DNA of 64,000 nucleotides from an archaeon (GCA_038874115.1 JAVZDC010000002.1:110531-174530); one strand, 5' to 3'; counted from the stretch's first letter, positions 1,801-60,126 are shown. The notes: generated from the letters alone by a model not told the origin. Made by a program: numbers and translations.

Positions 1801-3075
1801 TTACATTTGTTTCTTCTTGACATCAATAACCATTCCTGCAGCGATGGTTTTACCCATGTCTCTTATCGCAAATCTTGCTAATGGCGGGAATTCAGATACT
1901 TTTTCAACTACCATTGGCTTTAAAGGTTTAAACTTTACAACTGCTAAATCTCCTGTTTTGATGAATTCAGGGTGTTCTTGTAAAGTTTGTCCGGTTCTTG
2001 GATCCAATTTTTTCACAAGTTCTATGATTTGGCAAGCAACTTGTGCTGTATGACAGTGAATCACAGGCGTATATCCTACAGTTATTGCACTAGGGTGATT
2101 CAATACAGTAATTTGGGCCGTAAATTCTTCAGCTACAGTTGGAGGATTGTCTACTGGACCAACAACGTCTCCTCTTTTTATTAGTTTTTTATCCACTCCT
2201 TTTAAGTTAAAACCAATGTTGTCTCCAGGTTCGGCTTCTTGCATCTGTTGGTGGTGCATTTCAATGGATTTTACTTCTCCAACTACATTTGCAGGCATTA
2301 TAACAACTTTATCGTTTACTTTTAATTTCCCTGTTTCCACTCGCCCTACAGGTACTGTTCCAACTCCAGTAATTGAATATACATCTTGGATTGGCAATCT
2401 CAATGGTTTATCTATTTGTTTCTGTGGTTCTTTCAAATTATCTAAAGCTTCTAATAAGGTTGGCCCGTTGTACCATGGTAATTTATCGCTCTTTTTTGCA
2501 ATATTATCTCCAGCATATGCTGATATCGGGATAAATTGAACTTCTTCTATTTTGTATCCCACCATTTTTAATAAATTACTCACATCTTTTTTTACATCTT
2601 CAATTCTTACTCTATCGTAATTTATCGCGTCTATTTTGTTTAGAGCCACTATCATTTGGTTTACTCCCAAGGTTCTTGCTAAGAAAATGTGTTCTTTTGT
2701 TTGATCTTGTACGCCTTCTTTTGTTGAAACTACTAGAACTGCTGCATCAGCTTGACTCGTACCAGTAATCATATTTTTAACGAAGTCTCTGTGACCTGGT
2801 GCATCTATGATCGTAAAGTAATATTTTTTAGTATGAAAGTCTTTATGTGCAACATCAATCGTAACCCCTCTTTCTCTTTCTTCTTTTAATCTATCCATCG
2901 CGAAAGCGAATTCGAAAGTAGCTTTTCCAACCCTTGCTGCTTCCTCTTTCAATGTTCTAAGGTCAGTTTCAGATAATGCTCCAGTTTCATAAAGTAGTCT
3001 CCCAACAGTCGTTGATTTTCCATGATCTACGTGCCCTATAAATACCAAATTAACGTGTGGTTTTTTTTCAGCCAT
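1801..3075 (-). CDS. tuf: translation elongation factor 1-alpha (aEF-1A)
   Basis: GTPase motifs [18 protein letters not shown]; archaeal EF-1alpha over full length. Start placed at MAEKKPH (ATG at 3075); the ORF track extends to 3084. Confidence 0.95.
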
Positions 3076-3099
3076 CACATACACCTCCGAATATTAACA

Positions 3100-16592: not shown

Positions 16593-16696
16593 TCCCGCGG
16601 GTGAGAGTTGAACTCACAACCTACCGGTGGCGACCTCCAAAGGCCGGTGCCTTATCGAGACTACAGCCGGTCGCTCTGCCATTGAGCTACCGCGGG
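16593..16696 (-). tRNA. tRNA-Tyr (anticodon GTA) with ~32-nt intron after position 37
   Basis: Acceptor CCCGCGG/CCGCGGG (C1-G72, as in archaeal tRNA-Tyr), anticodon stem ACCGG/CCGGT, loop CTGTAG then intron TCTCGATAAGGCACCGGCCTTTGGAGGTCGCC, T-arm GTGAG-TTCAACT-CTCAC. Confidence 0.8.
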
Positions 16697-16772: not shown

Positions 16773-17384
16773 ATGCTGGCCGGTTTTTTCTTTAATTTTA
16801 TAGTTTCCACGATACAGATTACTGGCTATATAGGTTTGTTTTTTCTTACCATGATTGAGAATATTTTTCCACCAATACCCTCGGAAGTTATTCTTCCTTT
16901 TGCAGGATACTTGTCTTATTTAGGGTTCTTGAATTTTATTTTGGTTATTATCATTGGTGCCTTGGGTAGCGCTTTGGGGTCGATCGTACTTTATTTGATC
17001 GGTCTTAGGTTTGGGAGGCCCTTTTTGGAAAAATATGGCAAATGCTTCTTAATTAATAATAAACAATTACTTAACGCTGAAAAATGGTTTTTAAAAAATG
17101 GAGATTCAGCAATTTTATTATCCAAGATTGTTCCTGGAGTAAGGAGTTTGATTTCAATTCCGGCAGGGATTGCAAAATATCGCATCAGCAATTTATTTTT
17201 TTATTCTTTTATTGGCTCTCTTTTCTGGTGTTTTTTATTGAGTTGGACTGGATTTGTTTTAGGTCCGTATTGGCCTAAAATAATTGAATTTTTGGACAGT
17301 TTGGACCCGCTTATATTTGCATTAATTTGTTTAATGTTTTTTTTAATTTTCAAAAATTCAAGAAATGGGTCCGCTGAGATTTGA
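16773..17384 (+). CDS. DedA/SNARE-associated family membrane protein
   Basis: 203 aa polytopic membrane protein; DedA-like region LFLTMIENIFPPIPSEVILPFAGYL. Its 3' end overlaps tRNA-Pro on the opposite strand by ~19 nt. Confidence 0.7.
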   Translation: MLAGFFFNFIVSTIQITGYIGLFFLTMIENIFPPIPSEVILPFAGYLSYLGFLNFILVIIIGALGSALGSIVLYLIGLRFGRPFLEKYGKCFLINNKQLLNAEKWFLKNGDSAILLSKIVPGVRSLISIPAGIAKYRISNLFFYSFIGSLFWCFLLSWTGFVLGPYWPKIIEFLDSLDPLIFALICLMFFLIFKNSRNGSAEI

Positions 17385-17439
17385 ACTCAGGTCTCCAGCT
17401 CCCGAAGCTGGAAGCCTAACCAGACTAGCCTACGGACCC
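17366..17439 (-). tRNA. tRNA-Pro (anticodon CGG)
   Basis: Acceptor GGGTCCG/CGGACCC, anticodon stem CCAGC/GCTGG with loop TTCGGGA, T-arm CTGAG-TTCAAAT-CTCAG. Confidence 0.75.
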
Positions 17440-17787
17440 TTAGTATTGGCTAAACATTGCTCCTATCCCCATAGCACTGCTTTCTTCTTCTTTCTTAAAT
17501 TCTTCTAACGCTTTCTTTAATTCCTCACCTTCTAACTTCTTTACTCCTTCAAAAAGAATTTCTTTTTCATGTTCTTTGAAAAACTCAGGTTCAGCTTCAA
17601 CTTTCAAATAGTAGAATCCTTTTTCCAGGTTCAAAATTTTTCCATCCCTCAGCGACAAACTTTTCCTAGACCATTCGTTTACGATAAACGTTTTCTTTCC
17701 TTCTTTTTCTTCAACACGATCCTGAGCTTCAATTATCTTCTTTACATTATTTACTGCTTTTTCATCTATTTTGTATACAACTTCCAT
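17440..17787 (-). CDS. hypothetical protein (115 aa)
   Basis: Clean ORF in a gene-dense AT-rich region; no family recognised. Shares a KGFY-containing segment with the 25935..26174 ORF. Confidence 0.55.
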   Translation of the reverse strand: MEVVYKIDEKAVNNVKKIIEAQDRVEEKEGKKTFIVNEWSRKSLSLRDGKILNLEKGFYYLKVEAEPEFFKEHEKEILFEGVKKLEGEELKKALEEFKKEEESSAMGIGAMFSQY

Positions 17788-17803
17788 GAGACCACCTTTT
17801 TGA

Positions 17804-17876
17804 AGCCCCGGGAGGGATTTGAACCCCCGACCTATTGCTTACGAGGCAATCGCTCTACCAGCTGAGCTACCGAGGC
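17804..17876 (-). tRNA. tRNA-Thr (anticodon CGT)
   Basis: 73-nt cloverleaf: acceptor GCCTCGG/CCGGGGC, D-arm GCTC-AGCTGGTA-GAGC, anticodon stem ATTGC/GCAAT with loop CTCGTAA, T-loop TTCAAAT. Confidence 0.85.
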
Positions 17877-17878
17877 AC

Positions 17879-20800
17879 TTAATTTATTAAATACAAATGC
17901 AATTTTTTATTAATTTCTTTTTTGTTATGCAGACATAAAAAGAAGATTGTAAGAAGTACAGTTAAGATGAATTCCAATTTATCTTCTGGAGCAGGGTATA
18001 AAATTTCGATTACTTCCGGAGTTGTAAAGTTATACCCTGAATAAGTGTGATTATTTCCAGCTTCGTCCCATATCGTAATATTATAGAAATATGTAACTCC
18101 GTCTCGGAGATTATTTAATGCTACCTGATGATAATAATCGAAATGTGAGCTACTTACAGACCATGATCCGTCTCCATCCGAGTATGTTATTGCGTAGTTT
18201 GTTAATTCATCAGTAATCCAAGATATTGTTGCAGAGTTAATTGTAGTTGTAACGTTTGGGCCATCCGTTATGTTTGGCGGAAGAATATCGAACCCCAGCG
18301 GGGCAAATATACTCCCGAATTCTGTTATGTTTGCGTACACTGCATTATGCTCCGCATCTACTTCATTAATGTTGAAGAACGAATCATTCCACCACGTACC
18401 GGTATACTTCCATATTCTCAATGTATTCTCATCAACATTTGTTATTTCGTCATCCGTATATGTAAAGTTAATGAATAACCAACTATCTAAGGAGTTGTTT
18501 GACGCATCAACCCATTTTCTAATGTTGTTATGTTTTGAAGGATTAGGAGGGACGTTTTCTTCGTTTAAACTTTTAACTGTAACATCTTTTCCTAAGAATG
18601 AGAACTTTATTTCACTGCTTTGTAAGTTGATTATCTCATTCTCCGATGAATTTTGAGCCGAATAAAAGTCTAAATCAGTACAATTGTTTATACTATTGTT
18701 TGCAAATGTGTTGTTCGATGATGAAATTAAATAGATACAATACTTGCTATCCTTGATAAAATTGTTAGATATATTCGAATTTGTAGTGTTTATAAGATTG
18801 ATTCCTTTTAATGTTGCATTTAAGATGTTGTTGTTTAAAATCGAAACAATCGATACGTTGTTTATTGTGAAGCCAATCACGACATTAGTGATGTTGTTTT
18901 TATAAAATGTAAAGTTTTCAGTGGTGTTGTCTCTTGCCCCACCAAAACCAATGATTTGTACGGCCCCTCCAGGATCGCTGATATTTTCAAAAATATTTTC
19001 TACAAAAGTTTGATTGAATGGCCCTCCTTCCATTTTTAATGGAAAGAATGAAAAACTGTTATTATTAAATTCATTATTTCTTGTCCAAGTCGATGTTGAG
19101 TAGAGAGAATATCCAGAAGATGGCGATATTTTGTTATCAACAAATATACTGGAAGTAAGTACATAAGAGTAAATTCCTGCATACTTTGTACCTGAAATAA
19201 TATTGGATGAAACGTTGTAATAGTTGTTTCCTTTTGTAGTTGCTGGAAAAGAAATACCGATTGAAGATGTGGGTAAATTTGTGCTTATTGTATTGTTGAA
19301 AATTGTAGAGTTAGATGCTGATGCTAAATAAACTCCATAATCGCGGAAATTATTTATTCTGTTATTTGTTATTTTTTGCTTGATGGGTGTTGTTACTCCA
19401 TCATGAGCAATATAAATTGCAGAAGAACAATTTACGCACTCAAAAACGTTGTTAGATATATTATTGTTCCAACTTGCGTTAAGCATCATGTGGATTTGAG
19501 AAATTGAATTTGAAGTAAAATTGAAAATGTTGTTATTTATTGTCATATTGCTGGAATAATAAGAAAAAAAGTGATAAGGCGTTGAAGTTAAACTACTTTT
19601 TATCGTATTATTTTCAAAGATAATTCCAGAACTATTATAAAGATAAATACTTTCATTTTGCATATTTTCGATTTTGTTGTTGTAGAAGTAATTTGGAAAA
19701 GTTACATTCCAAAACAAGATTCCTCGTGAAGAAGAGTAAATTGTATTGTTTACTATTGTATTGTTGTATGGACTCTCAGAAATGACTCTTGTAGATACAG
19801 TTATTACTGCACCACCGAGCCAAGGTTCAATTGTTGACTTGTAATTGTTGGCAAAAGTATTATTTGTAATGAGATTATCGTGCGGGCAACTACCAGAATT
19901 ATCGCACCTAATTAGAAGTAAAGCTAAATTACAGCTGACAGAAACATTTTCGCAAATAGAGTTATTTCTTATAACGTTAAACGCAGAACCACTGCTAATG
20001 GCTATTGAAGTTGAGCCGGAAACTTCTTTTAATCTGTTGTTCTCTATTAGATTGTAAGTCGAATAAGCAGTGCTTATCAAGGAGTTTGTAGATGCGTTGA
20101 TCTGGTTGCCAGTAACGTTATTGTAATGACTTGAAGATAAAAATATTCCATTGCTATAATATTCTCCACCAAGATAAAATTTAGGAGAAGTTGCGGGTTG
20201 GCATATAATCGTATTGTTATTTATTGTGTTGTTTTGAGAATCTTTAATATAAATTCCAGTTCCCCTCAAGGTATAAATAGAATTGTATTCGATGCGATTG
20301 TATAAACTATTCGCTTCAAGAAATATTCCGTAGGTTATGTTTGTGCTGTTCAATTCATTAAAACTTATATTCGTGGAATTTACTCCATACCCATAAATAT
20401 GAGCAATTGGCGGGGAAGAGTACGGAGTATAAAATTTATTGTTTTTTACGTTCAAATTTGCTGCAGAATTCAAATAAATTCCATAACCACTGTAATTTAA
20501 TATTGTGTTATTAATTATATTTATCCAATTTGAAGAATATATCTCGAGAATATTTATTGTCGAGCTTAAACCGAGCAAATTATTAGTTATATTGACGTAT
20601 GCTGAATTATTTATGAAAATACTTTCGTTATACTCAGAATAAGCTATTGATGTATATCCTGTATTATTATAAAAATCTACGTTTTGTGTACCGTTGACAT
20701 ATAGCCATCTAACAGTATAGTTGAATACATTATTGTAAATACTAATGTTTTGAGAATTTCTAAATCCAATAGCATATAAGCTTGCAGATCTTGTATCGAA

Positions 20801-21667
20801 TTTATTATTTCTTATTATGATATTGTATGCTACATAAGTACCTATGTCATTGGTGGCGTTTACATAATTATCTTCGATTGTTATGTTCCTTGATGAGTCG
20901 GTGATTAAAAATCCAGTATCATAATAAGGCAAAACTGTGTTGTTTTTTATTATAATATTTGATGATGAAGAAAAAATGCGAATTGCTTGTGGCCAGTACC
21001 CAGACCCCAAATTCCCCCCCAGGAATATATTTGATGTAATGTTAATTCCATTGGAAGAAGCCAACTCTACGTGTCTGACCCAGCTATTGTTAAAATAATT
21101 GTTGTCTATCTTAGAATTTTGAACAGAATTTAACGAAATTCCTTTACTTATGTTGACAGCAGTAAAATTATTGTTTTTAATTAAATTTCCATCACCAGTT
21201 GATATGTATGTGAATGTGTTTGAACCAAGCTGATAATCTTGGAATTTATTATTCGATATATTTGTGTTGTTTAAGTTGGTCGCATAAACATAATACGTGT
21301 TACTTGGTTGATCGTAAATAAAGCAGTTTTCTATAGAAGAACTTGTAACGTTCGTGATATGAATGCTGTATGCCCAATTACTAAGATTAATATTTTTTAT
21401 GGTGACATTTGTTATCGCTCCGCCGTACACTTTTATACCATATGTATTTGCGGCATTTATACCGTCAATCACATGATAGTTACCGTTTAAAATCACGTTT
21501 GATGTTGTTATTTCGATGCAAGTTGCAGAATCATTGTTCAATACATCAGCTATTAAGTTGTATTCTCCCGGATATGTAATTACAGTACAACCGCTTATAT
21601 CGACAGTACACCCAATAACCACTAATAAAACAAAAAGTAAGCACACAATAAATATCTTAAGTTTCAT
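17879..21667 (-). CDS. large cell-surface protein with right-handed parallel beta-helix repeats, signal peptide and C-terminal TM anchor/sorting signal
   Basis: Start moved to MKLKIFIVCLLFVLLVVIGC (signal-peptide-like). Periodic ~22-aa repeats of the NNxIxxN/IxNNxF type (IKNNTVL, IEDNYVN, IRNNKFD, IYNNVFN…), very many N-x-S/T sequons; C-terminus PEDKLEF-ILTVLLTIFFLCL-HNKKEINKK (motif + hydrophobic helix + basic tail). Confidence 0.8.
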   Translation of the reverse strand: MKLKIFIVCLLFVLLVVIGCTVDISGCTVITYPGEYNLIADVLNNDSATCIEITTSNVILNGNYHVIDGINAANTYGIKVYGGAITNVTIKNINLSNWAYSIHITNVTSSSIENCFIYDQPSNTYYVYATNLNNTNISNNKFQDYQLGSNTFTYISTGDGNLIKNNNFTAVNISKGISLNSVQNSKIDNNYFNNSWVRHVELASSNGINITSNIFLGGNLGSGYWPQAIRIFSSSSNIIIKNNTVLPYYDTGFLITDSSRNITIEDNYVNATNDIGTYVAYNIIIRNNKFDTRSASLYAIGFRNSQNISIYNNVFNYTVRWLYVNGTQNVDFYNNTGYTSIAYSEYNESIFINNSAYVNITNNLLGLSSTINILEIYSSNWINIINNTILNYSGYGIYLNSAANLNVKNNKFYTPYSSPPIAHIYGYGVNSTNISFNELNSTNITYGIFLEANSLYNRIEYNSIYTLRGTGIYIKDSQNNTINNNTIICQPATSPKFYLGGEYYSNGIFLSSSHYNNVTGNQINASTNSLISTAYSTYNLIENNRLKEVSGSTSIAISSGSAFNVIRNNSICENVSVSCNLALLLIRCDNSGSCPHDNLITNNTFANNYKSTIEPWLGGAVITVSTRVISESPYNNTIVNNTIYSSSRGILFWNVTFPNYFYNNKIENMQNESIYLYNSSGIIFENNTIKSSLTSTPYHFFSYYSSNMTINNNIFNFTSNSISQIHMMLNASWNNNISNNVFECVNCSSAIYIAHDGVTTPIKQKITNNRINNFRDYGVYLASASNSTIFNNTISTNLPTSSIGISFPATTKGNNYYNVSSNIISGTKYAGIYSYVLTSSIFVDNKISPSSGYSLYSTSTWTRNNEFNNNSFSFFPLKMEGGPFNQTFVENIFENISDPGGAVQIIGFGGARDNTTENFTFYKNNITNVVIGFTINNVSIVSILNNNILNATLKGINLINTTNSNISNNFIKDSKYCIYLISSSNNTFANNSINNCTDLDFYSAQNSSENEIINLQSSEIKFSFLGKDVTVKSLNEENVPPNPSKHNNIRKWVDASNNSLDSWLFINFTYTDDEITNVDENTLRIWKYTGTWWNDSFFNINEVDAEHNAVYANITEFGSIFAPLGFDILPPNITDGPNVTTTINSATISWITDELTNYAITYSDGDGSWSVSSSHFDYYHQVALNNLRDGVTYFYNITIWDEAGNNHTYSGYNFTTPEVIEILYPAPEDKLEFILTVLLTIFFLCLHNKKEINKKLHLYLIN

Positions 21668-21717
21668 ACGCCTCTTTATTTTAAACATGTTTAAAAAATA
21701 TATCTTTTTCGAAGAGT

Positions 21718-22110
21718 TTAACAACAATTAATATTAATTTCTATTTTATCTTCTGTTACGTTTTCTTTCCAATCAAGCCCGTTTTCTTGAATATAAACTT
21801 TTTCATAACTTGCTTTGTTATTTTCCACATGTATCGTTTTTTGTTGTTGCGCTAAACAACCTTTGTATTCTAAAGTATAGTTTTTTCCATTTTCAAATTT
21901 TAATAAAAGATAACCTGCGTCATCTGTTTCTTTTTTCTCCCCATTTACATATATTTCTGCTTTTTCAGGGAATGCCAAACATTTGCCGTTTGTTAGATGA
22001 TACTTTACTATTTTTACCGGAATTAGCCCAACTGAAATCTGAGCTTGGCTGAGATAATACGCAAAAGCAATTATTCCAAGGATCAAAATCAACAAAATGA
22101 CTTCTTTCAT
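21718..22110 (-). CDS. hypothetical membrane-anchored protein (130 aa)
   Basis: N-terminal TM helix (VILLILILGIIAFAYYL), C-terminal Cys pair; immediately upstream of the beta-helix protein on the same strand. Confidence 0.55.
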   Translation of the reverse strand: MKEVILLILILGIIAFAYYLSQAQISVGLIPVKIVKYHLTNGKCLAFPEKAEIYVNGEKKETDDAGYLLLKFENGKNYTLEYKGCLAQQQKTIHVENNKASYEKVYIQENGLDWKENVTEDKIEININCC

Positions 22111-22124
22111 ATAGCTCCCTTAGA

Positions 22125-22199
22125 TGGTGGAGGCGGGCTTTGAACCCGCGACCTTCAGATTATGAGTCTGACGCTCTAACCGGGCTGAGCTACTCCACC
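22125..22199 (-). tRNA. tRNA with anticodon CAT (elongator Met or Ile2)
   Basis: Acceptor GGTGGAG/CTCCACC, D-arm GCTC…GAGC, anticodon stem TCAGA/TCTGA with loop CTCATAA. G1-C72 argues against an initiator tRNA. Confidence 0.75.
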
Positions 22200-22201
22200 G
22201 A

Positions 22202-22274
22202 TGGGTCTGGCAGGATTTGAACCTGCGATCTCCGCCTTGTGAAAGCGGCGTCATAACCCCTAGACCACAGACCC
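22202..22274 (-). tRNA. tRNA-Val (anticodon CAC)
   Basis: Acceptor GGGTCTG/CAGACCC, anticodon stem CCGCT/GGCGG with loop TTCACAA, T-arm GCAGG-TTCAAAT-CCTGC. Confidence 0.8.
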
Positions 22275-22276
22275 TT

Positions 22277-22368
22277 TAGCCCCGGGAGGATTCGAACCTC
22301 CGTCTGAAGGTATCTCCTCAATAAAGCAATCCAGAGCCTTCCATCCTTGTCCACTAGACGACGGGGCT
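22277..22368 (-). tRNA. tRNA-Gln (anticodon CTG) with ~19-nt intron
   Basis: A1-U72 acceptor AGCCCCG/CGGGGCT (common in archaeal tRNA-Gln), anticodon stem GAAGG/CCTTC, loop CTCTGG + intron ATTGCTTTATTGAGGAGAT, T-arm GGAGG-TTCGAAT-CCTCC. Exact intron boundaries uncertain. Confidence 0.65.
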
Positions 22369-45684: not shown

Positions 45685-45797
45685 GAGATCAAACCATTTG
45701 TCCTCTATCGAATAATAAATTTCTTTTAAATTCGTAAGACCACCTTTATCATGTTCTATTTTCTAATGCCACCATAGTATATAAAATTTTTTCTTTT

Positions 45798-46601: not shown

Positions 46602-46752
46602 GAATATTTCTCTAATGCATGAAAATAAAGGAAGGGGTTTGTGCGAATTGTGCTGCGCCTGAAAACATTGGTTTTATGACTGCAAATAAAAGTATTGTTG
46701 CAATGATGATTATTATTAAGATATAAAGTGGAGTCCATTCCATGGAAATTAC

Positions 46753-47175: not shown

Positions 47176-47190
47176 GCATTCACCTCCAAT

Positions 47191-47403: not shown

Positions 47404-47443
47404 AACTTCACTACGTGTTTTTTATATAAAAATCTTTCTTTTT

Positions 47444-49881: not shown

Positions 49882-52144
49882 GAGCTTCCCTCCTAGCGAT
49901 AAGCGGTTTTACCTGGTTTTCTAAAAACCAGTCTTTCCATTCTTGAATTGCCATTTGATAATCAACCATTCCCAAATCTTCTCTCTGTCTTTCCAGTATT
50001 AAAAGCCAAGCATCATTAGCTGGAACAGTGTATTTCGCTTCCAATAATTCTGGTATTTGGTATTTATTCTTTTGGTCTACTGCAAATTGTTTTATTTCTG
50101 CCCTTGCGTTTATGTCTTCCCAGATTTGTTCAAAAGTTAGTCCTCTTCTTGCACTAATTCTTTTAAAAATCTCAGACTTTCTACAATTTTCTTCTAAAAC
50201 CTTAAAAGAATCTTTATCTACATTGTATTCTATAAGTTGCAAGAAACCATTTTCTTTTTCCGGATCTGAATACCAATGTTTTTCCACACTCGTTATTTCC
50301 ACAACTCTCCTATGTCTTTTCAAAGACCCCTTAAACCTTATTGGAGCACAAACTACACAAACGTCTGTTGCTTTGAAAGAAGTATTTGGAACTCCTAAAT
50401 CGTTTACGATTCTGTCCCATACTGAATATGCGGATTCTCCGTGGATAGTTCCCATAACTACGTTACCTACAGCACCAACTCTCATAGCTTCGTACAAAAC
50501 TAAAGCTTCTTTAGATCTAACTTCTCCAACTATCAATACTGAATCTCCAAGCCTTAAAGCAGTCCTTAATGCTTCTTCTGGCGGTACTTCAGCACTTGTT
50601 CTAGATACTGCTATTGCTGATTGCGTTTTTAATCTTTGAATGTTAAATCCAAGCCCTTTCATGAATTCGACTGGAAGTTCTAAAGTGTCTTCTAGAGTTA
50701 GAATTCTTAAACTTGGCAATATTTCCAACATTAAAGCTTGAAGAAGAGATGTTTTCCCTGCCCCTCTTGAACCAACAACAAGAGTGGATGCTTGCGCATC
50801 TATTAAATAAGATAATAAACCAGCTACTTTGCTATCTATCATTTTTACATCTATAAATTGTTGTAATGTCCACGGAGTTTCTTTATGCAATCTTAGTGCA
50901 AACGCAGTACCATCAGGGGATAAAGGTGGTCCAATAACTGCAATTCTTGTTTGTAAATCTCTTAAATCAAAATCCAAGACCGGATGGGCTTCATCAAAAG
51001 GTCTTCCAGAAAGGGCTCTAAACCTAGATACCAAAGTTTTTGCTTCTTCTTCAGTAAAAACAACGTTTGTTTGGCAAGAACCATATTCTCCATGCACAAC
51101 GTAGACAGGTTTGGTTCCAAGAGGAGCATCGATATAGACATCAGTTAACTTTCTATCAGAAAGCAACAATTCCAATATCCCGTAACCAACAGTATATCTG
51201 CAAACAATTCCAGCAATTTCCGAAGCTTCTTTTCCAGTAATTTTTATTCCATGTTTATTGGCCAAATCTATAATCGTTGTTTCATAAACTCCAAGCAAAT
51301 AGTTCCTTAGTTCTTCCGGATTAGCAAAATGTAATCCTTCAGGAGAATAAGTTGAAACAATATCTTTAGTCTTCGAAAGTAAAAAGTATTTTTCTGGAGG
51401 CAAGTTGTATTCTGGAGGGGCAATATAATAAAGATATTGAACTTTTGCTGGATGTTTGTATATATTTACAGTCGCATCTTTTACATAATATTGGTCCACT
51501 AATTCTATTTCTTCTGGAGTTGCGAAAAAAACTCTGGATGCAACAAAAGCAGGTTTTATTTGAGCTTCAAATAAACTATGATAAATAGTTCTTCCTGGCG
51601 GAATTCTCCCAAGCTTTTTTATAATTTCTTTTGTTTTTTGAATTAGAGTAGTTTTTTCAAAAGCAGCTAACATGAAATATAGTGTATTTAAGTATATGTC
51701 GCTACATTCTTTTTCTATTCCTTGAAGGCCGGCATTCCTTTCATTCTCTCTTTTCAAAGCTTCAACCAAAGTTAAATATGCTCGGAGAGGGTCTGTTTTT
51801 AAAAGATCTTGAGCAATGGAGACGACTAATGAATACCGTCCAGGAATTTCTCCTTCGCATTGAGGATGGCCAAGTCTTGAAGAATTCCACACTCCTTCCC
51901 TATAAAATAAGTTCCCCAATTCTCCGATTTCTTTAAGCATTTTTGTTTGTTCTTCAGAATATATTATTTCATAAACTTCAGCTAGAACAACCATGTCTGC
52001 ATTTGTTCTAGCCAACTTTTCTATAACTTCCCTCATGCATTGTGGAAAATCAGCAACAGAAGGGCCCCACTCGCTTCCTCTATAATCAATGATTAAATAC
52101 CTCTTTGTTCCTTCTGTTTTTATTGTGAAATCATGCGCAGCCAT
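49856..52144 (-). CDS. type II/IV secretion-system ATPase (FlaI/VirB11/PilB superfamily) with long N-terminal extension
   Basis: 762 aa; Walker A VVGSRGAGKTSLLQAL, downstream conserved Asp/Glu and His boxes typical of secretion ATPases. Confidence 0.85.
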   Translation of the reverse strand: MAAHDFTIKTEGTKRYLIIDYRGSEWGPSVADFPQCMREVIEKLARTNADMVVLAEVYEIIYSEEQTKMLKEIGELGNLFYREGVWNSSRLGHPQCEGEIPGRYSLVVSIAQDLLKTDPLRAYLTLVEALKRENERNAGLQGIEKECSDIYLNTLYFMLAAFEKTTLIQKTKEIIKKLGRIPPGRTIYHSLFEAQIKPAFVASRVFFATPEEIELVDQYYVKDATVNIYKHPAKVQYLYYIAPPEYNLPPEKYFLLSKTKDIVSTYSPEGLHFANPEELRNYLLGVYETTIIDLANKHGIKITGKEASEIAGIVCRYTVGYGILELLLSDRKLTDVYIDAPLGTKPVYVVHGEYGSCQTNVVFTEEEAKTLVSRFRALSGRPFDEAHPVLDFDLRDLQTRIAVIGPPLSPDGTAFALRLHKETPWTLQQFIDVKMIDSKVAGLLSYLIDAQASTLVVGSRGAGKTSLLQALMLEILPSLRILTLEDTLELPVEFMKGLGFNIQRLKTQSAIAVSRTSAEVPPEEALRTALRLGDSVLIVGEVRSKEALVLYEAMRVGAVGNVVMGTIHGESAYSVWDRIVNDLGVPNTSFKATDVCVVCAPIRFKGSLKRHRRVVEITSVEKHWYSDPEKENGFLQLIEYNVDKDSFKVLEENCRKSEIFKRISARRGLTFEQIWEDINARAEIKQFAVDQKNKYQIPELLEAKYTVPANDAWLLILERQREDLGMVDYQMAIQEWKDWFLENQVKPLIARREALERAKKKV

Positions 52145-52657
52145 TTTAACATTCCTCGTTCCGAATTCGTGAAAGCGACTTTTTTTACTTTTAAAATCTT
52201 GCTATTTTTTTCTATTTTTATAACTCTACTCTCTTTTATAAATCTTTATCCTCTTAAAGTCTTTGTGGCTAAAGGCGTCTCTTTTTTATTAACTCTTTTT
52301 GGTGTACCGCATGTTTTAATCTTCTCAAGCCCAGAGCCAAGCATTTTTGTAGATAATGTCGAAGCCCAAATAAAGGACTTATGTGTTGGACATATGGAAA
52401 TTGCGTTGATTTGTTCGATAATCTTAGCTTGTGATGATCGTTCTGTTAAATCTCGAGTTCTTGGTGCCTTTTGTTCTATTCCTTTTGTTTTTTTCTTAAA
52501 TCCTTTAAGAATCTCGGTCGTTTTGTTTTTTGGGCATTATTTCTCCTGGCCTTTTGCAGACTTTATTCATGATGTTCTTTTCAGGCTCACTCTTTTTATT
52601 GTAATTCTTATTTACTTTCTGATTTGGTATGTTTTATCCTGGAAGTTTAAGTTATAA
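52133..52657 (+). CDS. possible small polytopic membrane protein with Cys-Ser / Asn-x-x-Arg motifs (exosortase/archaeosortase-like?), or non-coding
   Basis: 174-aa ORF in the 550-bp divergent intergenic region; TM helices, EIALICSIILAC and FLNPLRISV. May be spurious (AT-rich DNA gives hydrophobic ORFs) or may start internally. Confidence 0.3.
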   Translation: MRSHFNIPRSEFVKATFFTFKILLFFSIFITLLSFINLYPLKVFVAKGVSFLLTLFGVPHVLIFSSPEPSIFVDNVEAQIKDLCVGHMEIALICSIILACDDRSVKSRVLGAFCSIPFVFFLNPLRISVVLFFGHYFSWPFADFIHDVLFRLTLFIVILIYFLIWYVLSWKFKL

Positions 52658-52696
52658 CTAAGAAAAAATTTAAATAGTTTTAGGCATTAGAAAATT

Positions 52697-53833: not shown

Positions 53834-53864
53834 TCTTTAAATTCTTATTTTCCCTTGTTTATTC

Positions 53865-54407: not shown

Positions 54408-54408
54408 T

Positions 54409-55304: not shown

Positions 55305-55308
55305 ATGA

Positions 55309-55824
55309 ATGAATAAAGCCCAAGCAGCTCTTTTCGACGCTCTTTTCTTTATGTTTTTAGCAGCTGGAGCAGCTTACTTATTACTTTTCGTGGCTGCAAA
55401 CTATGCTGCGGATACACAAAATCAAGTAGCTTTCACGTATAATTATGATTATCTCTCAAACGTTTTTGTAGCGTTACATTATTTAAAAGATGATTCTGGA
55501 AACTTTTTTTGGTTAAAATTTGAAGAAAAATTGGGGAAAGAAGAACAAAGTTGCAATTATTTGAAAGATTATTTTGGTTTGACAAAGGTTACTTATGATC
55601 CAAACGATCATGAAAAAGCAAAACCTATTTTAGAACTTTTGAATGCTTCAAGTCCAAGTGATTGTTTTGTTTTGGAAATAAGGGAAAATGGGTGCAAGAT
55701 ATACGTTTCCGGAAGTGAGGCTACTTGCGAAGAAAGCAAAGAAAGAAATCAAGTAATTGCTTATTCCACCGGAATTTCTAAAGGTCTTAAATCTTATACT
55801 TTAACTTTGAAGGTTTTGCGCTGA
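55309..55824 (+). CDS. prepilin-like protein (class III signal peptide)
   Basis: N-terminus MNKAQAALFDALFFMFLAAGAAYLLLF (K-A-Q + hydrophobic helix). Confidence 0.5.
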   Translation: MNKAQAALFDALFFMFLAAGAAYLLLFVAANYAADTQNQVAFTYNYDYLSNVFVALHYLKDDSGNFFWLKFEEKLGKEEQSCNYLKDYFGLTKVTYDPNDHEKAKPILELLNASSPSDCFVLEIRENGCKIYVSGSEATCEESKERNQVIAYSTGISKGLKSYTLTLKVLR

Positions 55825-58800
55825 GAATCTTTTTCTTATTATAAGAATTCCTAAAATTACTGCAATCAGGAAAGGTAAGAATTCTATCCCTTCAGGAACG
55901 CTTGGTAACTGAGCCAAGATGCTTGGTTTTTCAGAAGGTTTTGTTGGCCCACCGCCAGCTACTCTACTCGTGCCTAAGAAGTTTTGCATAGGTATTATTC
56001 CTCCCCCAGCCCAACCGCCTCCAAGAGTCTGGAAACTTGGGTTTAAGTTAAGTGGGAATTCATTACTAATCGATATTTTTCCTGATTCAGCATTGAATAT
56101 TATGGACCCTTGCGGGCTTCCAAACAACCATACTGGGAATGAACTAACAGGCTTTCCGTCTTTTGAAATTTCTACAACTGGTTCTCCGTTTGGTCCAGTT
56201 TTAACTTTTAATTCCATCCCATCGTCAAATTTTATTACCCCATCTTTTATCTCTTTTATATCATGACATTCTTCTTTGCCTTCTTTGTTCCAGCATAATT
56301 GATTATCTTTTATGTAAATAGATTCGTTTTTGTCTAATGAAACAATCCTGTCAAAGCACATTTCTTCCAACAATGCTTGCAGTTGAGCTCTTTCATCCGG
56401 GTCTCTTGTTTCAGCTACAAGTTTAAATCCTTTTAACCCATCAGTTTCGCAAGGATCTGTAATTCTCCAATTCTCAAAGTTTGTGCTTTCATCAACGTAT
56501 AAATCATAGAAGAATAAGTGCATTACATTCCTTCCATATGTTTTAGATTCTTCTTTTGCCCTGCCGATTACTGTTTTCTCGTTTTCAAACTCAATATAGC
56601 TTCTAGAGTCCATAGTAAATAAACAAGAACCTGCTTGTATGCTTCCATTCCTATAAACAGTTATTTCTTGGCCAACAGACAATACTTTTCCAAGCCCGTG
56701 AACTTCTTCTCCACATTTTGATTCTTTCAAAAATCTAACATAAAATCCATCTTTTTCTTTCCAAATGTACCCTTCTTTTGTGTTTATGAATTGGAATCCT
56801 CCAAAGGCGTTTTTAATTATTTTTTCTTTGTATGCTTCTTTTGCGTTTACTCCTCCAAACAATTTCAAAATAGCATTTTTAACGCAATCATTCTCGATAG
56901 TTACAGTATCATCAGAACGTATTTTGAATAATGTATCATCTTTCATGAATACGTTTATTACTTGGAGTGGTAATCCTAAATATCCTCGATCGTTGTGCCA
57001 TCTTAATCCTAATAACTCTGGCCCTTCAAGGATCAAATTACCCTTTTCATCATAAAGGTAATATCCTTTTCCTTCTATGCATTTGAATTTCCCTTCTTCT
57101 ACTTGTTGGCAAAATTGTATTGGGCAGTCTTCGCCAGTATTGAAGTCAAATATTGTGTCTGGATCAAAGTGGAATTGATAGATTTCAGGCATGAAATAAT
57201 TCATGTTGTTTGGAGGGTTTATTTTTCCTTGAATGTTTAAAATTTGAGTATAAGTAGATGCGCTCACAATCTCAGATATTTTATTTGCCGCTTCTGGTGC
57301 AAAGCCTTGGAGTAAAGTTCCTAAACTTTGTACTGCAGGTTTAAGTTGTGAAGATAATTGAGCTGTTAAGTCATCAGCCTCTTCCTTCAATTCTCCTCTG
57401 TCAACTTGTTGGAATGCTAAAAGAGAAAACTTAGTTTCTTTACATCTTTTTAAGCGTTCTAATCCTTCTGCTTTTGCTTCTTCATATTGTCTTTGGGCTT
57501 CATAAGACCATAGACTAGTAGCTATTGATGCAATTGTTGTAGCAGGTTTCACTATAGCTCCGACTCCACTGTACGTAGCTACCGTATCTACGCTTGTCGC
57601 AGCAAGGTCAGCTATAATGGCCGCATAGTACCATCCGAACTTCTCATCTACTTTTCCTTCAACATCCACAAGAGTTTTTTCACAATCTTCTCCAGATGCG
57701 TATGCTGCCAATGGATCAGAGATTGGCGCCCATCTAACTTCTTTCATATGTTCTGATATTTCTTGCATAACTCTACCTTGTTGTTGTAGACCAGCGGCAA
57801 TAGCGATAGCGACAAGTGCTCTTGATGCAGGAGTGATTCCTCCAAAGGTAGGTAGTGGGACTATAAAAGAGGTTAAAAGAATCGATTTTCCAACATCCCC
57901 CCAGTTAGGCATTTGTGCAGCCACTTTCGAAGCAGGTAATTGAGCCCAATCTTCTGTTGATGGGGCCCAACCACTCATGTTTACATTCGTGATATCCATC
58001 CCAATACTTGAGACAAACGTTTTTCCAAAATAGAATAAGCTCGATGGATGTTCATACAAATAATAAGCTGTTTCTAACGGATTTCCTACGGTAGCGAACA
58101 TTATTTTTCCCGGGCTTGCTTCTGTTATTCCGAAAACATTAAGTGGTCTTGCAGAAGTTAAAGCAGTTGTAAGTCCTTGTTCTTGGTCTGCTATAAAAAC
58201 ATAAGATTGCTTTCCACTTTGTACCTTTTGTGCAATTAATGGTATATCTTTCCATTCAATACCAAATACAAGGTTAGTGGATTTTATCCAAGCACTTGGA
58301 GGTCTGAAATCTTCTCCTTCAATTCCATCTTCGGCAGCATATTTTAGTTTTGTTACAACGATGTCAAGATATGAAGATTGATTTATGAGTTTTCGAGTAG
58401 GAGTTAACTCAAATTCTAAAGCATGAACTAATATTTCTCCTTTTGGTTCTTGGGTAAGAGCCCAAGCTCCAACAAGCAACATTGCAGCTCTGTGCATCAA
58501 AGCTTGAGCATGCGCCAGAGTTAAAGCGTTTAGCACATACCTACCTCCATTTATCAGGAACGTCACCCCAGCTCTGTAAAGACCTTCCTCAGCTTTAATG
58601 ATTATACCCTTTTTCGTACCTTTTTCAACTTCTAGATACCTGCTCAAATCGATAGTTTTCTTTCCTATAGAAATTTTAGATCTCCCTTCAGCAATGAGTT
58701 TTATCTCTTCATCCGATGGTTGCTCAATTATTTTTCTAACAAATTTGAGTCTAGGGTCCTTCACCAACCCACCCTCAGAGTTTTTCAGTTCCGATATATA

Positions 58801-60126
58801 ACCTTGTATTTTGTCCAAGCAACCTTCTTTAACACAAAATTCTTTCTCATATTCTCCTACGAGTCCATTTTCTATAGCATTTTTCATATCCTTTGGCATC
58901 TTTCCTTCTTTTATAAGCTCTTGTAGTTCTTTTTCAGATAGCCCTAATTCTTTTTCTGTTAGTGTTTTTATTCCTGAATACTCTACAAAAGCCTTTTCCA
59001 TAAGCTTATCATTATTTTTAAGCTCTTCTTCCAAACTCGTCATTTCTTTTTCCAACCTGGAAAGCCTCCATTTACCAATCCGCCCCAACTTCCCCGATCC
59101 TTCAAGTTCTTTCAATCCTTTTACTTTTTCACTAATCTCCATGTACTTTTTAGCCTGTGCTGCAATACCAGACTTTGTAACAGTCGTCCCCTTTTTCATC
59201 CCTCCTTTCAAAGAGGCAAACCCAACAGCAGTGCTTACCCATCCAGCAATTTCAGCATATTCTTCCAACCCTGCTTTTCCAGCAAGGAAATGAGTATAAG
59301 CTAATAGAGTTTTTGGTATCAAAAATCCAAAATCCATTTGAGAAAGAAGTCCAGTTGTTCTATTGCTTTCAATTATGTTCATCCTTCCTGTTTGTTGTAT
59401 GTCCATTATTTTTGTCGATAAATCCATTATTGCCATTGCAGCTTTATCTTTTTCCCCTCCTTTTATAGCATTCATGCTTTCTTCATATATTTCTTTATAC
59501 TGTTCTTTCCACCCGCTTTCACTCCATGCTCTCTCCAAATCTTGTTCTGAATTCTTTTCTATTGCGTTTAGCAATGCTTGGATTTTTCCATAATTCTGAG
59601 CATTTGTTTCTTTCTGAGCTTCACTTAAGTATCCATTTTCACAAGCAGGGTCATGAATTTCAGAACAGATTCTTGTATTCCAATCTATTTTTCCAGCAAA
59701 GCTTATTGCTCCCCTATAAAAAGCATCAGTAAGGTAACATTGAGACCCAGCAGGAACTATCTTATGTTGAAGAGTATCAAAAAGGAGTATTGGCTTTCCT
59801 CCAGGACCAAGAATAAATAAGTCCTTTACATTATTTACAGAAGAATCAGGAGAAACGCCTGCTTTATTATATGTATCTGCTCTTTTTTGAGCTTCCGTAT
59901 TTCCATAAAAGTCAATAGTTATCGAATTATTCAAAAGCCTTTCATATTCGCTCGCATTCAATGTGACAATCTCAACTTCCTTTTCACAATTTTGTACATT
60001 TTTTATTTTATACATCGAAGTAATATTAATCTCTTTTGAAATTGCAAAACTTATCGGTTCTAACGTTGAGAAAAATAATATTCCAAAAAACAAAATCGCT
60101 ATTAATTTATCTCGCATATCTTCCAA
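55801..60126 (-). CDS. giant (1441 aa) secreted/surface protein with C-terminal PEF/PGF-CTERM-like sorting signal
   Basis: N-terminal signal/TM (LIAILFFGILFFSTLEPISFA); no recognised catalytic domain; C-terminus PSVPEGIEFLPF-LIAVILGILII-RKRF (motif, TM helix, basic cluster); GC above local background. Confidence 0.8.
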   Translation of the reverse strand: MEDMRDKLIAILFFGILFFSTLEPISFAISKEINITSMYKIKNVQNCEKEVEIVTLNASEYERLLNNSITIDFYGNTEAQKRADTYNKAGVSPDSSVNNVKDLFILGPGGKPILLFDTLQHKIVPAGSQCYLTDAFYRGAISFAGKIDWNTRICSEIHDPACENGYLSEAQKETNAQNYGKIQALLNAIEKNSEQDLERAWSESGWKEQYKEIYEESMNAIKGGEKDKAAMAIMDLSTKIMDIQQTGRMNIIESNRTTGLLSQMDFGFLIPKTLLAYTHFLAGKAGLEEYAEIAGWVSTAVGFASLKGGMKKGTTVTKSGIAAQAKKYMEISEKVKGLKELEGSGKLGRIGKWRLSRLEKEMTSLEEELKNNDKLMEKAFVEYSGIKTLTEKELGLSEKELQELIKEGKMPKDMKNAIENGLVGEYEKEFCVKEGCLDKIQGYISELKNSEGGLVKDPRLKFVRKIIEQPSDEEIKLIAEGRSKISIGKKTIDLSRYLEVEKGTKKGIIIKAEEGLYRAGVTFLINGGRYVLNALTLAHAQALMHRAAMLLVGAWALTQEPKGEILVHALEFELTPTRKLINQSSYLDIVVTKLKYAAEDGIEGEDFRPPSAWIKSTNLVFGIEWKDIPLIAQKVQSGKQSYVFIADQEQGLTTALTSARPLNVFGITEASPGKIMFATVGNPLETAYYLYEHPSSLFYFGKTFVSSIGMDITNVNMSGWAPSTEDWAQLPASKVAAQMPNWGDVGKSILLTSFIVPLPTFGGITPASRALVAIAIAAGLQQQGRVMQEISEHMKEVRWAPISDPLAAYASGEDCEKTLVDVEGKVDEKFGWYYAAIIADLAATSVDTVATYSGVGAIVKPATTIASIATSLWSYEAQRQYEEAKAEGLERLKRCKETKFSLLAFQQVDRGELKEEADDLTAQLSSQLKPAVQSLGTLLQGFAPEAANKISEIVSASTYTQILNIQGKINPPNNMNYFMPEIYQFHFDPDTIFDFNTGEDCPIQFCQQVEEGKFKCIEGKGYYLYDEKGNLILEGPELLGLRWHNDRGYLGLPLQVINVFMKDDTLFKIRSDDTVTIENDCVKNAILKLFGGVNAKEAYKEKIIKNAFGGFQFINTKEGYIWKEKDGFYVRFLKESKCGEEVHGLGKVLSVGQEITVYRNGSIQAGSCLFTMDSRSYIEFENEKTVIGRAKEESKTYGRNVMHLFFYDLYVDESTNFENWRITDPCETDGLKGFKLVAETRDPDERAQLQALLEEMCFDRIVSLDKNESIYIKDNQLCWNKEGKEECHDIKEIKDGVIKFDDGMELKVKTGPNGEPVVEISKDGKPVSSFPVWLFGSPQGSIIFNAESGKISISNEFPLNLNPSFQTLGGGWAGGGIIPMQNFLGTSRVAGGGPTKPSEKPSILAQLPSVPEGIEFLPFLIAVILGILIIRKRFSAQNLQS

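What the first reader, a model, noticed from the sequence alone, without database searches (positions are those of the whole stretch)
17879..22110. 1282-aa beta-helix glycoprotein candidate bracketed by tRNA genes
The protein has a signal peptide, dozens of ~22-residue parallel beta-helix repeats, an extremely high density of N-x-S/T sequons (candidate N-glycosylation), and a C-terminal motif + TM + basic tail. Its 3' end is 2 nt from tRNA-Thr, and a three-tRNA cluster (CAT, Val, Gln) lies upstream beyond a small membrane protein. It may be the S-layer or major surface glycoprotein; the tRNA bracketing suggests a variable or exchangeable surface locus.
Basis: partly seen in the sequence, partly recalled or inferred. 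Interest (0 to 1): 0.5.

Follow-up and report, generated by a model that had tools for sequence, protein, structure and literature searches.

The report
Sugar-coated beta-helix surface protein, DPANN archaeon
This gene encodes a large membrane-anchored, probably heavily glycosylated beta-helix surface protein of a tiny symbiotic-type (DPANN) archaeon; similar proteins are already described in such organisms, and it is probably not the cell's S-layer.

Summary
The ORF at 17879-21727(-) most likely starts at the ATG at 21667, giving 1262 aa. It has a signal peptide, about 35-43 parallel beta-helix rungs, a beta-sandwich, an FN3-like module, a TM helix and a basic tail. It carries 70 N-x-S/T sequons against 40±5 expected from its own composition, roughly ten times the density of neighbouring genes.

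NCBI already annotates it as a "right-handed parallel beta-helix repeat-containing protein". Comparable sequon-rich pectin-lyase-fold surface proteins are described in the cultivated DPANN archaeon Nanobdella.

It matches no S-layer family, and proposed DPANN S-layer proteins are Ig-like or beta-sandwich. The tRNA "bracketing" fits an extremely compact genome (median gap 6.5 nt). There are no att repeats and no integrase, and every available copy is identical.

Three further points:
- The same species has at least three beta-helix paralogues sharing the C-terminal cassette, which ends in "APED" + TM + basic residues.
- The window also encodes an archaeosortase-family protein (52133-52657).
- The only true orthologue (47% identity) sits on a contig that looks like a mobile element.

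Verdict: a new member of a known kind. It is most likely an adhesin or glycan-binding spike.

The parts
17879..21667 (-). Coding sequence of the beta-helix surface protein. It is 1262 aa from the ATG at 21667; the maximal ORF from the TTG at 21727 gives 1282 aa. The stop codon is at 17879-17881.
21608..21667 (-). Signal peptide MKLKIFIVCLLFVLLVVIGC. Its last four residues, VIGC, fit the lipobox pattern, but the Cys is not conserved in the orthologue.
   Evidence: lipobox pattern from PMC12462473
18608..21607 (-). Right-handed parallel beta-helix region of about 1000 aa and roughly 35-43 rungs. Two blocks are modelled confidently, with a low-confidence stretch between them. It carries most of the 70 sequons.
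18278..18607 (-). Beta-sandwich module following the helix. Homologous modules occur in many giant surface proteins.
18020..18277 (-). FN3-like module. The Pfam fn3 match is below threshold (E=4e-4, 20.9 bits against a cutoff of 25).
17969..17992 (-). Juxtamembrane motif APEDKLEF. 'APED' is shared with the paralogues BH517 and DUF2341-BH.
17882..17968 (-). C-terminal TM helix (ILTVLLTIFFLCL) and basic tail (HNKKEINKKLHLYLIN).
21718..22110 (-). 130-aa ORFan with an N-terminal TM helix. It starts 14 nt after tRNA-Met and ends 50 nt before the beta-helix gene.
22125..22368 (-). tRNA cluster: Gln (CTG, with intron) at 22277-22368, Val(CAC) at 22202-22274 and Met(CAT) at 22125-22199, separated by 2-nt spacers.
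17804..17876 (-). tRNA-Thr(CGT), starting 2 nt after the stop codon.
17366..17787 (-). 115-aa hypothetical protein (17440-17787) abutting tRNA-Pro(CGG) (17366-17439). T-runs follow tRNA-Pro, so this may be the end of one tRNA-mRNA transcription unit (inferred).
52133..52657 (+). 174-aa exosortase/archaeosortase-family protein with Cys82, Arg126 and His146. It is a candidate processing enzyme for the C-terminal signals.
55801..60126 (-). 1441-aa secreted protein ending VPEGIEF + TM + RKR, a second candidate substrate 3.1 kb from the archaeosortase-like gene.

Best explanation
The gene encodes a Sec-exported cell-surface protein of a DPANN archaeon related to Woesearchaeota/Pacearchaeota.

Architecture: a rod of about 1000 residues of right-handed parallel beta-helix, densely studded with N-glycosylation sequons, is held away from the membrane by a beta-sandwich and an FN3-like module. 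It is anchored by a C-terminal TM helix with a positive-inside tail.

Proposed role (inferred): an adhesin or glycan-binding 'spike' that contacts host-cell envelopes or extracellular polysaccharide. It is one member of a small paralogous family in this species that re-uses the same C-terminal anchor cassette. It is not the lattice-forming S-layer protein.

Possible processing (inferred): the conserved 'APED' motif before the TM helix, together with an archaeosortase-family gene in the same window, suggests that the TM anchor may be cleaved and replaced by a lipid anchor.

The flanking tRNAs: they most likely reflect a compact, co-oriented tRNA-mRNA transcription unit, not an integration site.

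Shown: domain architecture, fold, sequon excess, paralogue family, presence of an archaeosortase homologue. Inferred: glycosylation, adhesion role, sortase processing, co-transcription.
For: - Beta-helix: Pfam and TIGR matches. The AF2 model is all-beta-helix, with Foldseek hits to adhesin PfbA, tailspikes, PL6 lyases and AlgE epimerases.
- Topology: signal peptide plus a single C-terminal TM helix and basic tail.
- Sequons: 70 against 40±5 expected, and about 10x the neighbours. Density is kept in the 47% orthologue (71 sequons) with positional turnover: 33 shared, and 16 of the 37 lost have a replacement within 4 columns. This fits selection for a glycan coat.
- C-terminal modules are shared with thousands of giant surface proteins.
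- Paralogues BH517 and DUF2341-BH in the same species share the cassette and the sequon density.
- Archaeosortase-family protein above both curated cutoffs.
- PE[DG] lies just before the TM helix in 4 of the 5 secreted C-terminally anchored proteins of the species.
- Precedent: Nanobdella aerobiophila has three pectin-lyase-like surface proteins of 908-1320 aa with 36-52 sequons.
- Compact genome: median gap 6.5 nt, 93% coding.
Against: - No experimental data exist on expression, localisation or glycans, and no AglB gene lies in the window.
- Fold matches are generic (10-14% identity) and do not separate binding from catalysis.
- The C-terminus hits no curated CTERM sorting model. 'APED' conservation could simply reflect common descent of the cassette, and the 47% orthologue lacks it.
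- Codon usage is slightly shifted towards that of EF-1alpha, which would also fit a very abundant (S-layer-like) protein.
Confidence: 0.6

Rival explanations
1. It is the S-layer, or the major envelope glycoprotein, of this archaeon.
For: - It is large, secreted, C-terminally anchored and sequon-rich, like classical archaeal S-layer glycoproteins.
- It may be an archaeosortase substrate, as the Haloferax S-layer glycoprotein is.
- Its share of C-ending codons (0.38) is second only to EF-1alpha (0.42) in the window.
- Beta-helix S-layer proteins exist in bacteria.
Against: - No S-layer family match.
- Predicted DPANN S-layer proteins are MSTP-like beta-sandwich or Ig-like.
- At least three paralogues of very different length share the anchor.
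- Only one orthologue was found in 5.8 billion proteins, and none in the JGI metagenome scan.
- That orthologue sits on a mobile-element-like contig.
Confidence: 0.12
2. It is a surface-anchored polysaccharide-degrading enzyme (lyase, hydrolase or epimerase) that attacks host or environmental glycans.
For: - The best PDB fold matches are two-beta-helix PL6 alginate lyases, capsule depolymerase tailspikes, GH110 and AlgE/AlgG epimerases.
- The same idea was proposed for the Nanobdella pectin-lyase-like proteins.
Against: - Identities are only 8-14%, and TM-scores are low.
- No Pfam or NCBIfam lyase or hydrolase family was hit, and there is no PDB sequence homologue.
- No catalytic motif was identified.
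- The non-enzymatic adhesin PfbA scores equally well.
Confidence: 0.18
3. The 130-aa gene plus the beta-helix gene form a horizontally acquired, exchangeable cassette that inserted into a tRNA cluster and came from a virus or plasmid.
For: - The only orthologue (47% identity, 89% coverage) lies on a 23.6-kb contig (L083). That contig carries small ORFans, two P-loop ATPases, wHTH/AbrB-like genes, an S26 peptidase and a second beta-helix protein, with no tRNA or housekeeping genes.
- p130 is an ORFan.
- The paralogue BH517 also sits just downstream of tRNAs.
- Only 2.4% of ORFs in sampled DPANN loci lie within 150 nt of a tRNA.
Against: - No att-like direct repeats, no integrase, and only 2-14 nt of spacer.
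- GC is 31.5% against 33.9% for the window, whereas L083 is 26%.
- Nothing else is shared with L083.
- No relatives in IMG/VR or in the phage collection.
- All copies are identical.
- BH517 is conserved (94%) and syntenic between strains.
Confidence: 0.1

Closest known systems
[quoted passage not shown]
   Same: Both come from DPANN hosts. Both are about 900-1300 aa, with a parallel beta-helix (pectin-lyase fold), added Ig/FN3-like domains and dozens of N-x-S/T sequons (36-52 there, 70 here). Both are proposed to act in the symbiont-host surface interaction rather than as the S-layer.
   Different: This protein has a defined C-terminal cassette ending in APED + TM + basic residues.
Pfam Beta_helix (PF13229) / NosD (PF05048) / PbH1 'CASH' repeat proteins
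   Same: Significant repeat matches and the predicted fold.
   Different: It is not a NosD orthologue: TIGR04247 scores 40 bits against a cutoff of 300, and there is no nos gene context.
Haloquadratum walsbyi 'major variable surface proteins' (HQ1205 family) in the cell-wall genomic island (PMC4535781)
   Same: Membrane proteins of 1260-1626 aa with a pectin-lyase fold or parallel beta-helix repeats, on the surface of an archaeon.
   Different: Those lie in a demonstrably hypervariable metagenomic island. Here no variation could be shown, and the organism is unrelated.
[quoted passage not shown]
   Same: A tripartite C-terminus (short motif, TM helix, basic cluster) and an archaeosortase-family gene in the genome.
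   Different: The motif (APED...) matches no curated CTERM model. The enzyme matches only the family signature, not a named subfamily. Processing is untested.
Phage tailspikes/depolymerases, PL6 alginate lyases and the pneumococcal adhesin PfbA (structural neighbours)
   Same: Right-handed parallel beta-helix fold.
   Different: Identity is 8-17%, with no sequence-level homology. This protein is membrane-anchored and monomer-length, with two helix blocks.

Membership tests
Right-handed parallel beta-helix repeat proteins (PF13229 / TIGR03804) | Significant match to the repeat models | tested here: met
   PF13229 E=1.4e-42 in 6 stretches; TIGR03804 31.7 bits against a cutoff of 19.45
Right-handed parallel beta-helix repeat proteins (PF13229 / TIGR03804) | Predicted three-strand-per-rung beta-helix fold | tested here: met
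   In the AF2 model, blocks 1-470 and 680-1000 are mostly at pLDDT 70-95. Foldseek gives probability 1.0 to many beta-helix structures.
NosD (nitrous-oxide reductase maturation, TIGR04247) | Score above the family cutoff | tested here: not met
   40 bits against a cutoff of 300
NosD (nitrous-oxide reductase maturation, TIGR04247) | nosZ/nosF/nosY gene neighbourhood | tested here: not met
   The neighbours are tRNAs, an ORFan, a Na/H antiporter, PEP synthase, DedA and aminoacyl-tRNA synthetases.
Archaeal S-layer (glyco)proteins | Match to a known S-layer family (MSTP/DUF1608, S_layer_N/C, halo major surface glycoprotein) | tested here: not met
   No such family appeared in the Pfam or NCBIfam scans.
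Archaeal S-layer (glyco)proteins | Most abundant envelope protein forming a 2-D lattice | not testable with these tools
   The only proxy is codon usage: C-ending fraction 0.38 against 0.42 for EF-1alpha.
Archaeal N-glycoproteins | Exported protein with N-x-S/T sequons in excess | tested here: met
   70 sequons, z=5.7 against shuffles, about 10x the neighbours
Archaeal N-glycoproteins | AglB oligosaccharyltransferase in the genome; glycans attached | not tested
   No STT3/AglB was seen among the window proteins scanned. The rest of the genome was not available.
Archaeosortase/exosortase substrates | C-terminal tripartite signal: motif + TM helix + basic cluster | tested here: met
   APEDKLEF / ILTVLLTIFFLCL / HNKKEINKK. 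PE[DG] lies before the TM helix in 4 of 5 such proteins of the species.
Archaeosortase/exosortase substrates | Match to a curated CTERM sorting-domain model | tested here: not met
   No hit for this protein or its paralogues. For the 1441-aa protein, only E=0.13-1.7 to Heimdall-CTERM and PEF-CTERM.
Archaeosortase/exosortase substrates | Cognate sortase encoded in the genome | tested here: met
   Window 52133-52657: PF09721 38.7 bits (cutoff 25.7) and TIGR04178 42.2 bits (cutoff 23), with Cys/Arg/His present.
Archaeosortase/exosortase substrates | C-terminal cleavage and lipid attachment | not testable with these tools
   Needs mass spectrometry or genetics.
tRNA-integrated mobile element / genomic island | Direct repeats (att) duplicating part of a tRNA at the borders | tested here: not met
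   Only the generic T-arm similarity among the tRNAs was found.
tRNA-integrated mobile element / genomic island | Integrase or other mobility gene | tested here: not met
   None lies between 16.5 and 26 kb.
tRNA-integrated mobile element / genomic island | Presence/absence or replacement among close strains | tested here: inconclusive
   All same-strain copies are identical. In the strain at about 96% identity, contigs stop at window positions 17028 and 23815.
Polysaccharide lyases / glycoside hydrolases with a beta-helix fold | Sequence-family membership or a catalytic motif | tested here: not met
   No PL or GH Pfam family and no PDB sequence homologue; the similarity is in fold only.
Archaeal lipobox lipoproteins | [LVI][ASTVI][GAS]C at the end of the signal peptide, conserved in orthologues | tested here: inconclusive
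   VIGC fits the pattern (pattern from PMC12462473), but the orthologue has SYA|SD with no Cys.

The most novel reading that the evidence does not exclude
The 'APED/PEG(I/L)EF + TM + basic' C-termini of this protein, its two paralogues and the 1441-aa neighbour are a previously undescribed sorting signal. The signal would be recognised by the small (174-aa) archaeosortase-family enzyme encoded in the same window. This DPANN lineage would then lipid-anchor a family of glycosylated beta-helix 'spikes'. Their genes would be exchanged with mobile elements, and partly expressed from tRNA promoters as tRNA-mRNA co-transcripts.
Probability: 0.25. Interest if true: 0.5.

Novelty: new member of a known kind. 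Interest (0 to 1): 0.3.

Why it matters
DPANN archaea depend on physical contact with host cells, and the molecules that mediate that contact are largely unknown. This protein and its paralogues are concrete candidates: glycan-coated beta-helix rods on a shared anchor cassette.

Two links could be tested experimentally. One is the co-occurrence with a small archaeosortase homologue. The other is an orthologue on a mobile-element-like contig.

As it stands, the gene is already annotated generically, and the protein class has been described in a cultivated DPANN archaeon. The result mainly refines that picture. It shows that neither the S-layer reading nor the variable-locus reading is supported.

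Tried and rejected
- Synteny in GTDB representative genomes, using TyrRS as the anchor. The best relatives are only 52-57% identical and share no neighbouring genes.
- JGI metagenome scans with the protein alignment and with PEP synthase. There were no relatives of the protein, and only PEP synthases at 43% identity or less over long matches.
- IMG/VR scans and tblastn against phage records, for both the protein and the ATPase of the mobile-element-like contig. Nothing was found.
- PHROGs and Pfam on the mobile-element-like contig. There were no hallmark capsid or integrase genes, only weak P-loop ATPase hits and an S26 peptidase.
- Look-up of the exact 1262-aa product in the contig index failed. 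The 1269-aa start variant worked, and its contig is 100% identical to the window.
- Strain comparison through 90%-identity cluster members. This found a same-species strain (GCA_038885235.1), but its contigs end on both sides of the locus.
- AFDB fold search: the library was unavailable.
- Sequon positions against DSSP. Half of the sequon Asn lie in strands, against a quarter of the other Asn. Without coordinates, exposure could not be judged.
- NosD function was rejected on score and gene context. A lipoprotein reading was left open but is not conserved in the orthologue. Curated CTERM models gave no significant hit.


Full report
**1. What is there**

The minus strand carries an ORF at 17879-21727, 1282 aa from a TTG. 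NCBI annotates the identical product from the ATG at 21667, 1262 aa, as [quoted passage not shown] (P0001). That ATG is preceded by AGAGG and by an AT-rich TATA-like stretch (read by eye).

The protein starts with a classical signal peptide, MKLKIFIVCLLFVLLVVIGC. Its only other hydrophobic helix is at the extreme C-terminus and is followed by HNKKEINKK.

Pfam gives Beta_helix E=1.4e-42 and NosD E=5e-31. NCBIfam gives the parallel beta-helix repeat in 7 stretches. The NosD equivalog model scores only 40 bits against a cutoff of 300.

An AlphaFold2 model of residues 41-1240 has mean pLDDT 69.7. It is all-beta and contains:
- two confidently modelled helix blocks, of about 20 and 14 rungs;
- a poorly modelled stretch between them, up to 9 more rungs;
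- a beta-sandwich;
- a low-confidence FN3-like region.

The Pfam fn3 match to that last region is below threshold (E=4e-4). Asn positions autocorrelate at lag 23.

Foldseek against the PDB and against viral models returns only generic beta-helix neighbours at 8-17% identity. These include PL6 alginate lyases, tailspikes and depolymerases, the adhesin PfbA and AlgE/AlgG epimerases. No PDB chain is a sequence homologue.

**2. Sequons**

The 1262-aa protein has 70 N-x-S/T sequons, or 5.5 per 100 aa. Nearly all other ORFs in the window have 0-1.7 per 100; one small 196-aa protein reaches 2.55.

Shuffling the protein's own residues gives 40.4±5.2 (z=5.7), and the reversed pattern [ST]-x-N occurs 42 times. 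The excess is therefore real and directional. It is not just a consequence of 16% Asn.

It is not forced by the fold either, because some beta-helix homologues show no excess (P0004 z=0.2, P0009 z=-1.2). The density is nevertheless typical of archaeal beta-helix surface proteins in general, which range from 1.3 to 8.4 per 100.

Against the 47% orthologue, total density is preserved (70 versus 71) but positions turn over. 33 sequons are shared, and 16 of the 37 lost have a replacement within 4 columns. Sequon Asn are no better conserved (66%) than other Asn (74%). This is what one expects if a dense glycan coat, not any particular site, is under selection. Glycosylation itself remains inferred.

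**3. Organism and neighbourhood**

The window is a housekeeping stretch of an archaeal genome. It holds:
- RNA polymerase subunits, EF-2, EF-1alpha and ribosomal proteins S7 and S10;
- PolB, CysRS, TyrRS and PEP synthase;
- a type-IV-pilus-like locus.

TyrRS is at most 57% identical to any GTDB species representative. The best hits are Woesearchaeota, Pacearchaeota and Nanoarchaeota MAGs. The organism is therefore a DPANN archaeon with no close representative there.

Coding density is 93% and the median intergenic gap is 6.5 nt.

On the minus strand the order is as follows, with the gap to the next element shown for each:

| Element | Gap to the next element |
|---|---|
| tRNA-Gln (intron) | 2 nt |
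| tRNA-Val | 2 nt |
| tRNA-Met | 14 nt |
| p130 | 50 nt |
| beta-helix gene | 2 nt |
| tRNA-Thr | 16 nt |
| p115 | 0 nt |
| tRNA-Pro | T-runs follow |

. This looks like one compact tRNA-mRNA transcription unit, which is an inference.

No att-like direct repeats were found, only the common T-arm similarity among the tRNAs. There is no integrase. The gene's GC (31.5%) is close to the window's (33.9%).

**4. Relatives**

Among 5.8 billion proteins there is only one true orthologue cluster: P0002/P0025, 47-49% identity over 89% of the length. It has two extra rungs inserted and a different C-terminal domain. All other hits share only helix repeats.

That orthologue lies on a 23.6-kb contig, L083 (GC 26%). 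The contig contains:
- co-oriented small ORFans and two P-loop ATPases;
- wHTH, AbrB-like and Zn-ribbon genes;
- several secreted or membrane proteins;
- an S26 signal-peptidase homologue;
- a second 828-aa beta-helix protein.

It carries no tRNA or housekeeping genes. This looks like a virus or plasmid of another DPANN archaeon, but no hallmark gene was identified and nothing similar is in IMG/VR or the phage collection. Apart from the helix proteins, nothing is shared with the window.

The 130-aa upstream protein is an ORFan.

**5. Strains and paralogues**

All copies of the gene that could be found are identical: 7 NCBI contigs, plus a Logan contig that is 100% identical over 13.8 kb.

Cluster look-ups revealed a second strain of the same species, GCA_038885235.1. 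It is 97.4% and 95.5% nt-identical to the window on the two sides of the locus. Its short contigs end at window positions 17028 and 23815, so the locus itself cannot be compared.

The comparison did reveal that the C-terminal 263 aa is a re-used cassette. In the same species it also ends two other proteins:
- a 517-aa beta-helix protein, 94% identical between strains and syntenic;
- an 819-824-aa DUF2341 + beta-helix protein, 88% identical between strains.

Both carry about 5 sequons per 100 aa. The 1441-aa neighbour is 86% identical between strains. Surface proteins therefore diverge faster than housekeeping genes, as usual, but are not replaced.

The 517-aa paralogue also lies 100 nt downstream of two tRNAs. 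In the sampled DPANN loci, only 2.4% of ORFs lie within 150 nt of a tRNA. This is suggestive, but it is only one independent case.

**6. The C-terminal motif and an archaeosortase**

The sequences just before the TM helix are:

| Protein | Sequence before the TM helix |
|---|---|
| this protein | APEDKLEF |
| 517-aa paralogue | APEDDLEF |
| DUF2341 paralogue | APEDREIF or APEDSTQV |
| 1441-aa neighbour | VPEGIEF |

Each is followed by a TM helix and basic residues. Four of the five signal-peptide plus C-terminal-TM proteins seen in about 106 kb of this species carry PE[DG] there.

The window also encodes a 174-aa exosortase/archaeosortase-family protein at 52133-52657. It scores above the curated cutoffs of PF09721 (38.7 against 25.7) and TIGR04178 (42.2 against 23), and has Cys82, Arg126 and His146 in the expected order. 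It stays below the cutoffs of the ArtB, ArtD and pacearchaeosortase subfamilies.

Archaeosortases cleave such tripartite C-termini and attach a lipid, as in Haloferax ArtA (PMC6098224). However, none of the C-termini reaches significance against curated CTERM models. The best are E=0.13 (Heimdall-CTERM) and E=0.87 (PEF-CTERM), both for the 1441-aa protein. The 47% orthologue lacks the motif. Within the paralogues, the conservation may simply be inherited. I rate sortase processing as plausible but unproven.

**7. Comparison with what is known**

[quoted passage not shown] They have 36-52 sequons and Ig-like domains, and are discussed as host-interaction factors. Its S-layer candidates, like NEQ300 and Micr_00292, are Ig-like proteins.

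A structural survey predicts MSTP-like beta-sandwich S-layer proteins for the DPANN phyla and finds beta-helix S-layer proteins only in bacteria.

Haloquadratum has variable beta-helix surface proteins in a genomic island.

The present protein is therefore a new member of a known kind. The S-layer reading is unlikely, and the variable-locus reading is unproven.

**8. Verdict**

- The best explanation is a glycan-coated, membrane-anchored adhesin or glycan-binding spike belonging to a paralogous family with a shared anchor cassette (confidence 0.6).
- Interest is 0.3.
- The most novel reading not excluded is a new archaeosortase and sorting-signal pair in DPANN archaea (probability about 0.25).

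Noticed in passing
window 52133-52657 (+): A 174-aa exosortase/archaeosortase-family protein. It scores above the Pfam PF09721 and TIGR04178 cutoffs but below every named subfamily cutoff, including pacearchaeosortase. It sits between the pilus ATPase gene and a run of secreted or pilin-like genes.
   Followed up: partly
window 55801-60126 (-): A 1441-aa secreted protein with no Pfam family, ending VPEGIEF + TM + RKR. Its best NCBIfam hits, both sub-threshold, are Heimdall-CTERM and PEF-CTERM. It is 86% identical to its orthologue in the second strain, against about 96-97% nt identity for flanking housekeeping DNA.
   Followed up: partly
L083 1-22262 (NCBI JAVZBT010000009.1, GCA_038999735.1); L001 is the same DNA: A 23.6-kb, 26% GC contig of ORFans with two P-loop ATPases, wHTH/AbrB-like genes, an S26 signal-peptidase homologue and two beta-helix surface proteins (1329 and 828 aa). 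It looks like an unclassified DPANN virus or plasmid. Nothing related is in IMG/VR, the phage collection or PHROGs.
   Followed up: partly
L100 5471-5543 versus L101 4337-4412: Two MAGs of the window's species are 99.98% identical until 72 nt before the stop of the DUF2341-beta-helix gene. From there they diverge completely. The break falls right after the codons for 'SAPED', giving different TM tails and different downstream genes. The cause is either recombination at the cassette or a chimeric assembly.
   Followed up: no
L096 970-3522: The 517-aa paralogue with the same C-terminal cassette is also flanked by tRNAs: Pro(TGG) and Leu(TAA) 100 nt upstream, and Thr(GGT) after the next gene. Only 2.4% of ORFs in the sampled DPANN loci lie within 150 nt of a tRNA.
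   Followed up: partly
window 17366-22368 (-): Five tRNAs and three protein genes lie on one strand with spacers of 0-50 nt, and T-runs appear only after tRNA-Pro. There is no room for a promoter before p130, tRNA-Thr, p115 or tRNA-Pro, which suggests a tRNA-mRNA co-transcript processed by RNase P/Z.
   Followed up: no
window 16593-16696 (-) and 22277-22368 (-): Two intron-containing tRNAs. The first is found by Rfam but missed by ARAGORN. The second is mis-read by ARAGORN; its anticodon, read by eye, is CTG (Gln) with an intron of about 19 nt.
   Followed up: partly
window 40975-55824: A type-IV-pilus/archaellum-like locus: T2SSE ATPase, T2SSF-like membrane protein and several small proteins starting MKGQ + hydrophobic (pilin-type signal). 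Next to it is a 1569-aa CarboxypepD_reg/SpaA-fold protein with 27 sequons (z=3.2). That protein is another surface-protein candidate and a more plausible Ig-like envelope protein.
   Followed up: partly
window 21608-21619 (-): The signal peptide ends in VIGC, which fits the archaeal/bacterial lipobox pattern. The orthologue has an AXA-type site without the Cys.
   Followed up: partly
window 17879-21667 versus 1801-3084: The beta-helix gene has the second-highest share of C-ending codons for Asn/Phe/Tyr/His/Asp in the window (0.38), after EF-1alpha (0.42). EF-2 and the RNA polymerase genes are at 0.26-0.32. This is a weak hint of high expression or of a different origin.
   Followed up: no
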